From NCBI RefSeq assembly GCF_003334405.1, contig NZ_QOWM01000032.1: a DNA stretch of 5,842 bases; one strand, written 5' to 3'. Position numbers and translations under genes: made by a program. The DNA comes from Escherichia coli (GTDB taxonomy: Bacteria > Pseudomonadota > Gammaproteobacteria > Enterobacterales > Enterobacteriaceae). The number at the start of each line of letters is the position of its first letter. Position 1 is the first letter of the stretch. The notes beneath the pieces were generated by a model. The model had not been told where the DNA came from and ran no database searches. It saw only the letters and a program-made list of their open reading frames with translations. Shown in pieces: positions 5,152 to 5,842 of the stretch.

Positions 5152-5842
5152 ATGAGACTTTTTATCGCAGAGAAACCCGCAGTAGCAAATGATATTGTTA
5201 AGGCACTTGGAGGCAATTTTACCCGCCATGATGGCTGGTTTGAAAGTGATAACGCAATTGTGACTAACTGTTTTGGTCATATTATCGAATCACAGCCACC
5301 GGAAAACTATAATCCCGAATACAAAGCCTGGAAGGTTGAAACGCTTCCTTTACGTCTTTATCCCGTGAAGTATCAGCCTGTTGAAAGTGCAGCAAAACAG
5401 GTTAAAACGATTCTCGAACTTATCAGACGTGGAGACGTGACTGAAATTGTTCACGCTGGCGATCCTGATGATGAGGGACAGCTACTTGTTGATGAAGTCC
5501 TGGAATATGCCGGCAACACAAAACCCGTAAAGCGCGTTCTGATTAACGACAACACGCTTCCGGCAGTGAAAAAGGCGCTGGCAAATCTTAAAGATAATCG
5601 TGATTTCAAAGGGCTTTACCTTAAGGCGCTGGCGCGTTCAGTTGCCGATGCCGTCTATGGCTTCTCCATGACGCGTGCTTACACCATTCCTGCAAAAGCC
5701 AGAGGATATCAGGGCGTTCTGTCTGTCGGGCGCGTCCAGACTCCCGTTCTTGGCCTGATTGTGAATCGTACCCGTGCTAACCAGAACCATAAATCCAGTT
5801 TTTACTACACCATGACCGGAGTTTTTCAGCGTGGTGCTGATG
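5152..5842 (+). CDS. topB: DNA topoisomerase III (type IA), plasmid-encoded TopB homologue; 3'-partial, continues beyond the window
   Basis: Manual translation of the open frame from ATG 5152 gives MRLFIAEKPAVANDIVKALGG ... EIVHAGDPDDEGQLLVDEVLEY ... YQGVLSVGRVQTPVLGLIVNR. These match the Toprim N-terminus and conserved blocks of E. coli TopB as recalled (MRLFIAEKPS; HAGDPDREGQLLVDEVLDY; VLSVGRVQTPVLGLVV). No stop codon before the window end; absent from the ORF track because it is open-ended. Confidence 0.92.
   Translation, partial: MRLFIAEKPAVANDIVKALGGNFTRHDGWFESDNAIVTNCFGHIIESQPPENYNPEYKAWKVETLPLRLYPVKYQPVESAAKQVKTILELIRRGDVTEIVHAGDPDDEGQLLVDEVLEYAGNTKPVKRVLINDNTLPAVKKALANLKDNRDFKGLYLKALARSVADAVYGFSMTRAYTIPAKARGYQGVLSVGRVQTPVLGLIVNRTRANQNHKSSFYYTMTGVFQRGAD

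What the first reader, a model, noticed from the sequence alone, without database searches (positions are those of the whole stretch)
5152..5842. Plasmid-borne topoisomerase III downstream of the transfer genes
A type IA topoisomerase with very clear TopB signature blocks is encoded on what looks like a conjugative element. Such plasmid TopB homologues are known on several conjugative plasmids (for example TraE of RP4, recalled from the literature) but their function is unresolved. It is worth noting as context for the coupled upstream orphan.
Basis: partly seen in the sequence, partly recalled or inferred. Interest (0 to 1): 0.3.

Follow-up and report, generated by a model that had tools for sequence, protein, structure and literature searches.

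The report
IncX4 plasmid topoisomerase III gene (topB)
The window ends in the first 230 codons of an intact, well-conserved topoisomerase III gene that is a long-known standard backbone gene of IncX conjugative resistance plasmids, so the finding is correct but ordinary.

Summary
Confirmed and already known. Window 5152-5842 is the 5' end (230 codons, open to the window edge) of a type IA DNA topoisomerase of the Topo III subfamily. The whole window is 100% identical to E. coli plasmid NZ_CP070012.1 (IncX4, MOBP/MPF_T). There the gene continues to an intact 717-aa protein with Toprim, Topoisom_bac and Toprim_Crpt domains. It has the catalytic Tyr321, the acidic residues E7/D104/D106/E108, a Topo III-type decatenation loop and one C4 zinc ribbon. 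The full protein scores above the curated NCBIfam cut-offs for Topo III. It matches solved E. coli Topo III at E=4e-116 (39% identity). The gene lies distal to the T4SS/taxB transfer genes and is translationally coupled to hha, followed by an H-NS gene. The literature lists topB in the IncX core backbone, and RP4 TraE is a characterised plasmid Topo III. At least 5,000 PLSDB plasmids encode a relative. dN/dS is 0.04-0.12, yet natural insertion mutants exist, so it is selected but dispensable. Its biological role (probably unlinking plasmid replication or transfer intermediates) is inferred, not shown. Side result: the 191-aa upstream ORF is widely mislabelled "DNA topoisomerase III". It has no detectable relation to topoisomerases and is not obligately linked to topB.

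The parts
5152..5842 (+). 5' part (codons 1-230 of 717) of the plasmid topB gene. It covers the Toprim domain (aa 3-131) and the start of the Topoisom_bac core (from aa 153), with E7, D104/D106/E108 and GRVQTP. The gene runs off the window end.
   Evidence: The full gene is at L001 13152-15305, from a 100% identical record.
5140..5144 (+). Shine-Dalgarno-like AAGGA, 7 nt before the topB ATG. It lies inside the last codons of the upstream ORF.
   Evidence: Read directly from the sequence.
4572..5147 (+). Upstream 191-aa ORF of unknown function. Its stop is 4 nt before the topB ATG. Databases call it 'DNA topoisomerase III', but it is unrelated to topoisomerases.
1..1824 (+). Context: 3' part of taxB (type IV coupling protein). 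Its annotated start lies 39 nt upstream of the window.
   Evidence: L001 7962-9824.
1833..2544 (+). Context: Cag12-family lipoprotein gene (1833-2255) and TrbM/KikA/MpfK transfer gene (2239-2544).
3320..3835 (+). Context: thermonuclease-family protein gene, conserved at this position in IncX3 and IncX4.

Best explanation
Window 5152-5842 is the start of topB, the backbone topoisomerase III gene of an IncX4 conjugative plasmid.

Shown by sequence:
- The complete protein has 717 aa.
- It has a TOPRIM domain that binds Mg2+ through E7, D104, D106 and E108.
- It has a type IA cleavage core with Tyr321 in the conserved TY-x-R-S-D motif.
- It has a Topo III-type decatenation loop, 8 residues longer and very K/D-rich.
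- Its C-terminal ssDNA-binding tail has one C4 zinc ribbon (C635, C638, C651, C654) plus one Toprim_Crpt repeat.

Inferred from the family's established mechanism: it cuts one DNA strand and holds the 5' end on Tyr321. It then passes another strand (or a duplex at a nick or gap) through the enzyme-bridged gate and reseals.

Inferred from gene order: it is expressed at the distal end of the transfer-gene block. It is translationally coupled to the upstream 191-aa ORF and to hha (GTGA overlap), with an H-NS gene next and no + strand terminator until after hns.

Most likely biological role (inferred, about 50%): a plasmid-supplied decatenase that unlinks ssDNA-containing plasmid replication and conjugative-transfer intermediates. 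This would make plasmid segregation and establishment less dependent on the host's Topo III/Topo IV. It is beneficial but not essential.
For: Identity:
- The window is 100% identical over 5842 bp to IncX4 plasmid NZ_CP070012.1.
- The full protein scores 625.5 bits on NF005829 (cut-off 597) and 533 on TIGR01056 topB (cut-off 515.75). All Topo I and reverse gyrase models fall far below their cut-offs.
- Pfam gives Toprim, Topoisom_bac and Toprim_Crpt.
- Solved E. coli Topo III structures (1d6m, 1i7d, 2o19) match at E~4e-116 over residues 1-610. Y321 aligns to Y328 and the decatenation-loop region is aligned. Identity is 39%.
- E7, D104, D106, E108, Y321, R323 and D325 are invariant across IncX4, IncI2, IncN/Y, IncX3 and IncP homologues and E. 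coli TopB.

Functionality:
- dN/dS is 0.04-0.12.
- 1347 of 1423 plasmids with a nucleotide-level relative keep at least 80% of the gene in one piece.

Already known:
- A topB-sfx(hns) module is described for IncX plasmids (PMC11796372 / bioRxiv 10.1101/2024.07.10.602937).
- RP4 TraE has topoisomerase III activity (Li et al. 1997, cited).
- The decatenation loop is what makes Topo III a decatenase (PMC4191389).

Operon structure.
Against: - No activity data exist for this protein, so the biological role is inference.
- The gene is dispensable. IncX4 plasmid pHND18 carries a blaCTX-M-27 cassette inserted in topB and is still a working plasmid.
- An IS1203-interrupted copy and truncated copies exist (H65).
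- E. coli hosts already have a chromosomal topB, so the plasmid copy is formally redundant.
- The catalytic Tyr and C-terminal domains are not in the window itself. They are taken from an identical public record.
Confidence: 0.93

Rival explanations
1. The enzyme's main job is regulatory rather than segregational. With the co-transcribed Hha and H-NS-like proteins it would form a 'topology/silencing' module. TopB would relieve the topological stress or bridged-filament constraint that Hha/H-NS imposes, and so tune transfer-gene expression or oriT unwinding.
For: - A topB-hns linkage, with or without hha, recurs in IncX4, IncX3, IncN/Y and IncI2-type plasmids.
- The topB stop overlaps the hha start.
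- The idea is raised explicitly as speculation in PMC11796372.
- Island-borne Topo III mutants alter island gene expression and excision (PMC6220960).
Against: - There is no experimental test for IncX.
- IncP plasmids carry the topo III gene between traF and traD without hns or hha.
- Type IA enzymes act on ssDNA regions, not directly on H-NS filaments.
- This reading is compatible with the decatenase role rather than exclusive of it.
Confidence: 0.25
2. The gene is a decaying or non-functional remnant (pseudogene) carried along by the backbone.
For: It is dispensable in at least one natural IncX4 plasmid. A few truncated or IS-interrupted copies exist.
Against: - The ORF is an intact 717 aa with all catalytic residues.
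- dN/dS is 0.04-0.12.
- 95% of related plasmids keep the gene essentially complete.
Confidence: 0.02
3. It is a topoisomerase I-like relaxase, or a component of a defence system (a DpdF-like protein), rather than a Topo III.
For: The PADLOC DpdF model matches residues 4-414 (E=7e-71). Topo I models also give significant hits.
Against: - Topo I models score 90-202 bits against cut-offs of 456-1265, while both Topo III models exceed theirs.
- The DpdF match covers only the shared type IA core: model positions 28-451 of 1499.
- No dpd genes are nearby.
- A Topo III-type decatenation loop is present.
Confidence: 0.02

Closest known systems
topB of the IncX plasmid backbone (R6K, pOLA52, IncX3/IncX4 resistance plasmids)
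   Same: It is the same gene. The record is typed IncX4. [quoted passage not shown] It is 99% identical in protein to other IncX4 copies.
   Different: - This plasmid is a somewhat diverged IncX4 lineage. Only 5-6 PLSDB records are at least 99% identical in DNA, and most are 95-99%.
- IncX3 topB is only about 40% identical. It has an extra zinc-ribbon block and an ATPase gene upstream instead of the 191-aa ORF.
TraE of IncP-1 plasmid RP4 (characterised plasmid topoisomerase III, Li et al. 1997)
   Same: Both are plasmid-borne Topo III-family enzymes encoded among the DNA-transfer genes of an MPF_T/MOBP plasmid. The catalytic residues are the same. Identity to the IncP-1 (pADP-1) protein in the traF-traD position is 36%.
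   Different: - The lineage is different.
- The IncP protein lacks the 8-aa K/D insertion in the decatenation loop.
- It has a different C-terminal zinc-finger tail and no aligned Toprim_Crpt repeat.
- It has no hha/hns neighbours.
- RP4 itself was not compared here; pADP-1 was used as the IncP-1 representative.
Chromosomal E. coli DNA topoisomerase III (TopB; PDB 1D6M, 1I7D, 2O19)
   Same: The fold and mechanism are the same, by strong sequence homology over residues 1-610 (E~4e-116, 39% identity). The catalytic Tyr and TOPRIM acidic residues are present, and so is a decatenation loop.
   Different: - The plasmid enzyme has a longer, more charged decatenation loop.
- It has an extra ~100-aa C-terminal region with a C4 zinc ribbon and a Toprim_Crpt repeat. 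No counterpart to this region is seen within the 604 residues of E. coli TopB that were compared.
Genomic-island topoisomerases III (PbTopoIIIbeta of HAI2, TopB3 of PPHGI-1, GGI TopB)
   Same: These are also mobile-element-encoded type IA topoisomerases. Their loss is tolerated but changes element behaviour (PMC6220960).
   Different: They are on integrative elements, where the phenotypes concern excision and island gene expression. Sequence relationship was not tested here.

Membership tests
Type IA DNA topoisomerase, Topo III (TopB) subfamily | TOPRIM domain with the conserved Glu and the DxDxE acidic cluster for Mg2+ | tested here: met
   E7, D104, D106 and E108 are all inside the window. 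Pfam Toprim covers aa 3-131. These residues are invariant in the alignment with E. coli TopB and four plasmid homologues.
Type IA DNA topoisomerase, Topo III (TopB) subfamily | Cleavage/strand-passage core with the catalytic tyrosine | tested here: met
   Topoisom_bac covers aa 153-598 at E=7.5e-97. Y321 aligns to E. coli TopB Y328. Y321, R323 and D325 are invariant. These lie outside the window and were read from the 100%-identical record.
Type IA DNA topoisomerase, Topo III (TopB) subfamily | Score above the curated whole-protein cut-off of Topo III models, and not of Topo I or reverse gyrase models | tested here: met
   NF005829 scores 625.5 against a cut-off of 597. TIGR01056 scores 533 against 515.75. 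topA_bact scores 202 against 456, and reverse gyrase 88 against 472. The 230-aa window fragment alone (269.8 bits) cannot reach the cut-off because of its length.
Type IA DNA topoisomerase, Topo III (TopB) subfamily | [quoted passage not shown] 2000) | tested here: met
   The region aligns with the E. coli TopB loop and is 8 aa longer...FVTDPVIKKLLKDKDKDKKDEHGG.... The role of the loop is taken from PMC4191389.
Type IA DNA topoisomerase, Topo III (TopB) subfamily | Mg2+-dependent ssDNA cleavage, relaxation and decatenation activity | not testable with these tools
   This needs purified protein, or complementation of a topB mutant.
IncX plasmid backbone topB | Located on an IncX replicon between the pilX/virB-taxB transfer genes and the plasmid hns gene | tested here: met
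   PLSDB types the record as IncX4, MOBP, MPF_T. The gene order is virB4...virB11-taxB-...-topB-hha-hns-...-pir-type rep. The backbone definition is from PMC11880322 and PMC11796372.
'DNA topoisomerase III' as a label for the upstream 191-aa ORF (window 4572-5147) | Any detectable homology to type IA topoisomerase domains | tested here: not met
   - No Pfam, NCBIfam, PHROG or PADLOC hit.
- hhalign of its 25-sequence profile against TopB gives probability 0.08%.
Dpd (7-deazaguanine DNA modification) defence system, DpdF | Full-length DpdF architecture and neighbouring dpd genes | tested here: not met
   Only model positions 28-451 of 1499 are matched. There are no dpd genes in the 22-kb neighbourhood.

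The most novel reading that the evidence does not exclude
The 191-aa protein encoded 4 nt upstream belongs to a confidently folded family with no match among solved structures. Databases mislabel it 'DNA topoisomerase III'. On this reading it is a dedicated partner or specificity factor of the plasmid Topo III, analogous to RMI1 for Topo IIIalpha. The unit ORF-topB-hha-hns would then be a self-contained plasmid 'DNA-topology module', which moves between IncX4 and IncI2 backbones.
Probability: 0.08. Interest if true: 0.5.

Novelty: already known. Interest (0 to 1): 0.1.

Why it matters
As annotation it matters little. topB is a textbook backbone gene of IncX plasmids, which are the main vehicles of mcr-1 (IncX4) and blaNDM (IncX3), and plasmid Topo III has been known since RP4 TraE (1997). 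The open question is real but old: why do thousands of conjugative plasmids carry their own Topo III when the host has one? In PLSDB at least 5,000 plasmids do, and 88% of those are conjugative. This window adds no new handle on that question. The practically useful by-products are two. First, a correction of a propagated mis-annotation: the 191-aa upstream ORF is not a topoisomerase. Second, the observation that the enterobacterial plasmid clade has an extended, charged decatenation loop.

Tried and rejected
1. Pseudogene or truncation: rejected. The identical record gives an intact 717-aa ORF with all catalytic residues, and dN/dS is 0.04-0.12.
2. Topo I or reverse gyrase assignment: rejected on the NCBIfam cut-offs.
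3. Defence-system (DpdF) reading of the PADLOC hit: rejected. It is a core-domain match only, with no dpd neighbours.
4. Upstream ORF as a split-off topoisomerase fragment, as its database name implies: rejected.
5. Upstream ORF as an obligate TopB partner: weakened.
   - The two are adjacent in IncX4, IncI2 and L013, and about 1 kb apart in L010.
   - Homologues in L003, L004, L011 and L012 have no topoisomerase nearby.
   - IncX3 and IncN/Y topB genes lack the ORF.
6. Promoter scan of the topB region: hits are at the chance level, 13 found against 10.7 expected, so they are uninformative.
7. Rfam scan: nothing in the window part. There is only an AgrB antisense RNA beyond hns.
8. Repeat search: nothing in 5152-5842.
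9. Fused or paired structure prediction of ORF+TopB: not attempted. Only about 5 paired sequences were available, and a single-chain model with a linker would not be interpretable.

Full report
**Observation.** The frame starting at ATG 5152-5154 stays open for 230 codons to the end of the window. AAGGA lies at 5140-5144. The upstream ORF stops at TAA 5145-5147, 4 nt before the ATG, so the two genes are tightly packed. The 230-aa fragment alone matches NCBIfam 'DNA topoisomerase 3' (NF005829) at E=5.5e-80 and TIGR01056 topB at E=1.8e-64.
- FIAEKP, with E7.
- GDPDDEG, with D104/D106/E108.
- GRVQTP.

**Source and full length.** The whole 5,842-bp window is 100% identical to E. coli FDAARGOS_1288 plasmid unnamed5. 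This is NZ_CP070012.1, 32.6 kb, typed IncX4 / MOBP / MPF_T. In that record the gene continues to an intact 717-aa protein (L001 13152-15305).
- Pfam finds Toprim (aa 3-131), Topoisom_bac (153-598, E=7.5e-97) and one Toprim_Crpt repeat (653-709, E=1.9e-17).
- Just before the repeat is a C4 zinc-ribbon motif: C635-x2-C638-x12-C651-x2-C654.
- The full protein exceeds the curated cut-offs of both Topo III models (625.5 vs 597; 533 vs 515.75). It falls far short of every Topo I and reverse gyrase model.
- Against solved structures, the best matches are E. coli Topo III (1D6M, 1I7D, 2O19 and others) at E~4e-116 over residues 1-610. Y321 aligns to the catalytic Y328. Identity is 39%.
- In a six-way alignment with IncI2, IncN/Y, IncX3 and IncP-1 homologues and E. 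coli TopB, residues E7, D104, D106, E108, Y321, R323 and D325 are invariant.

**Lineage features.** The segment equivalent to the E. coli Topo III decatenation loop is present. In the enterobacterial plasmid clade it is 7-8 residues longer and very K/D-rich (…KKLLKDKDKDKKDEHGG…). The IncP-1 protein and E. coli TopB lack the insertion. The decatenation loop is the element that distinguishes Topo III as a decatenase (PMC4191389). The residue numbers for E. coli are from my recollection of Li et al. 2000.

**Context.** The gene order is virB4…virB11 – taxB – Cag12-like lipoprotein – TrbM/KikA – small ORFs – thermonuclease – ORF – 191-aa ORF – topB – hha – H-NS-family gene, all on one strand.
- The topB stop overlaps the hha start (GTGA).
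- No + strand terminator-like site occurs until after hns. Promoter-like hits are at the chance level.
- topB is more GC-rich (45-52%) than the 31-38% region upstream.

**How common and how conserved.** tblastn against PLSDB hits the 5,000-record ceiling. Of those records, 4,880 show at least 80% coverage and 4,378 are conjugative plasmids of many genera. At the DNA level 1,423 plasmids carry a close relative, and 1,347 keep at least 80% of the gene in one piece. dN/dS is 0.04 (IncX4 vs IncX4) and 0.12 (IncX4 vs the 85%-identical IncI2 copy). Interrupted copies exist:
- An IS1203 insertion (H92).
- Truncated fragments (H65).
- The published IncX4 plasmid pHND18, which has a blaCTX-M-27 cassette inside topB (bioRxiv 10.1101/2023.11.23.568506).

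The gene is thus under purifying selection but dispensable.

**What is known.** Several published sources cover this gene and its relatives.
- PMC11796372 describes the topB–sfx(hns) module. It speculates that topB could relieve Hha/Sfx-imposed topological stress.
- RP4 TraE is a characterised Topo III homologue. Li et al. 1997 is cited in PMC7140829 and PMC6220960.
- The IncP-1 gene at the traF–traD position is 36% identical to the IncX4 protein.
- Island-borne Topo III mutants (PbTopoIIIβ, TopB3) are viable and show altered excision and expression.

The finding is therefore an already-known gene.

**Mechanism.**
- Shown by sequence: a complete type IA / Topo III catalytic apparatus.
- Inferred from family knowledge: Mg2+-dependent cleavage of a single strand, with a 5'-phosphotyrosyl link to Y321. 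Strand passage through the enzyme-bridged gate follows, then religation. The loop and the zinc-ribbon/Toprim_Crpt tail favour decatenation of ssDNA-containing substrates.
- Inferred from context: co-expression with the transfer genes and with hha/hns.
- Best guess at role (~50%): unlinking of plasmid replication or conjugative intermediates, as a host-independent back-up.
- Main rival (~25%, not exclusive): topology-based tuning of H-NS/Hha silencing of the transfer genes.

**The upstream 'orphan'.** Window 4572-5147 encodes a 191-aa protein.
- *The database label is unsupported.*
  - Many of its 59 homologues are named 'DNA topoisomerase III' by NCBI or UniProt.
  - It has no Pfam, NCBIfam, PHROG or PADLOC hit.
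  - Its profile does not align to TopB (hhalign probability 0.08%).
- *Its fold matches no solved structure.*
  - AlphaFold2 gives a confident model (pLDDT 90.9, pTM 0.88).
  - Foldseek finds only ~190-aa uncharacterised proteins, from Proteobacteria and Firmicutes.
- *Its linkage to topB is frequent but not obligate.*
  - It is adjacent to topB in IncX4, IncI2 (96% identical) and L013.
  - It is about 1 kb from topB in L010.
  - There is no topoisomerase nearby in L003, L004, L011 and L012.
  - IncX3 and IncN/Y topB genes have other neighbours.
- Its dN/dS is ~0.12, so it is a real gene of unknown function.

**Verdict.** Novelty: already known. Interest is low.

Noticed in passing
[not shown]
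   Followed up: partly
window 4316-4528 (+): An unannotated 70-aa hydrophobic ORF, probably a small membrane protein, with a strong AGGAGG Shine-Dalgarno 5 nt upstream. It lies in the most AT-rich gap of the window. Other IncX4 plasmids carry a DUF6012 gene in this interval instead (L002 7766-8353).
   Followed up: no
window 2823-2864 (+), in the 81-bp gap between ORFs 2550-2807 and 2889-3323: A strong hairpin with 20-nt arms, 90% complementary, and a 2-nt gap between them. The RNA MFE is -31.6 kcal/mol with z = -7.0 against shuffles. No T-run follows, so it is not a classical terminator. It could be an RNA stability or processing element, or a protein-binding site.
   Followed up: partly
L001 14649-14672, approximately (TopB residues ~519-526; outside the window): Enterobacterial plasmid TopB proteins (IncX4, IncI2, IncN/Y, IncX3) share a 7-8-aa K/D-rich insertion in the decatenation loop. 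It is absent from E. coli chromosomal TopB and from the IncP-1 TraE-type protein.
   Followed up: partly
L001 12572-15508 compared with L007 2921-5941: The unit 191-aa ORF + topB + hha is shared between IncX4 and an IncI2 mcr-1 plasmid. Divergence is uneven: the ORF is 96% aa identical and TopB 85%. This suggests a mosaic, recombining module.
   Followed up: partly
L001 16337-16424 (-), downstream of hns (outside the window): An Rfam AgrB antisense RNA (62 bits against a gathering score of 40) lies a few hundred bp upstream of the annotated DinQ-like type I toxin gene dqlB. This is a type I toxin-antitoxin locus on the plasmid.
   Followed up: no
window 5152-5842 compared with 4200-5000: GC content rises from 31-38% in the region upstream to 45-52% inside topB. 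This is consistent with topB having a different evolutionary origin from its AT-rich flank, which is a likely H-NS target.
   Followed up: no
window 1-5842 as a whole: This plasmid is an uncommon IncX4 sub-lineage. Only 5 of 1,452 matching PLSDB records are at least 99% identical. Most IncX4 records align in 2-3 pieces with 85-88% coverage, because the 3.8-4.6 kb interval is variable.
   Followed up: no
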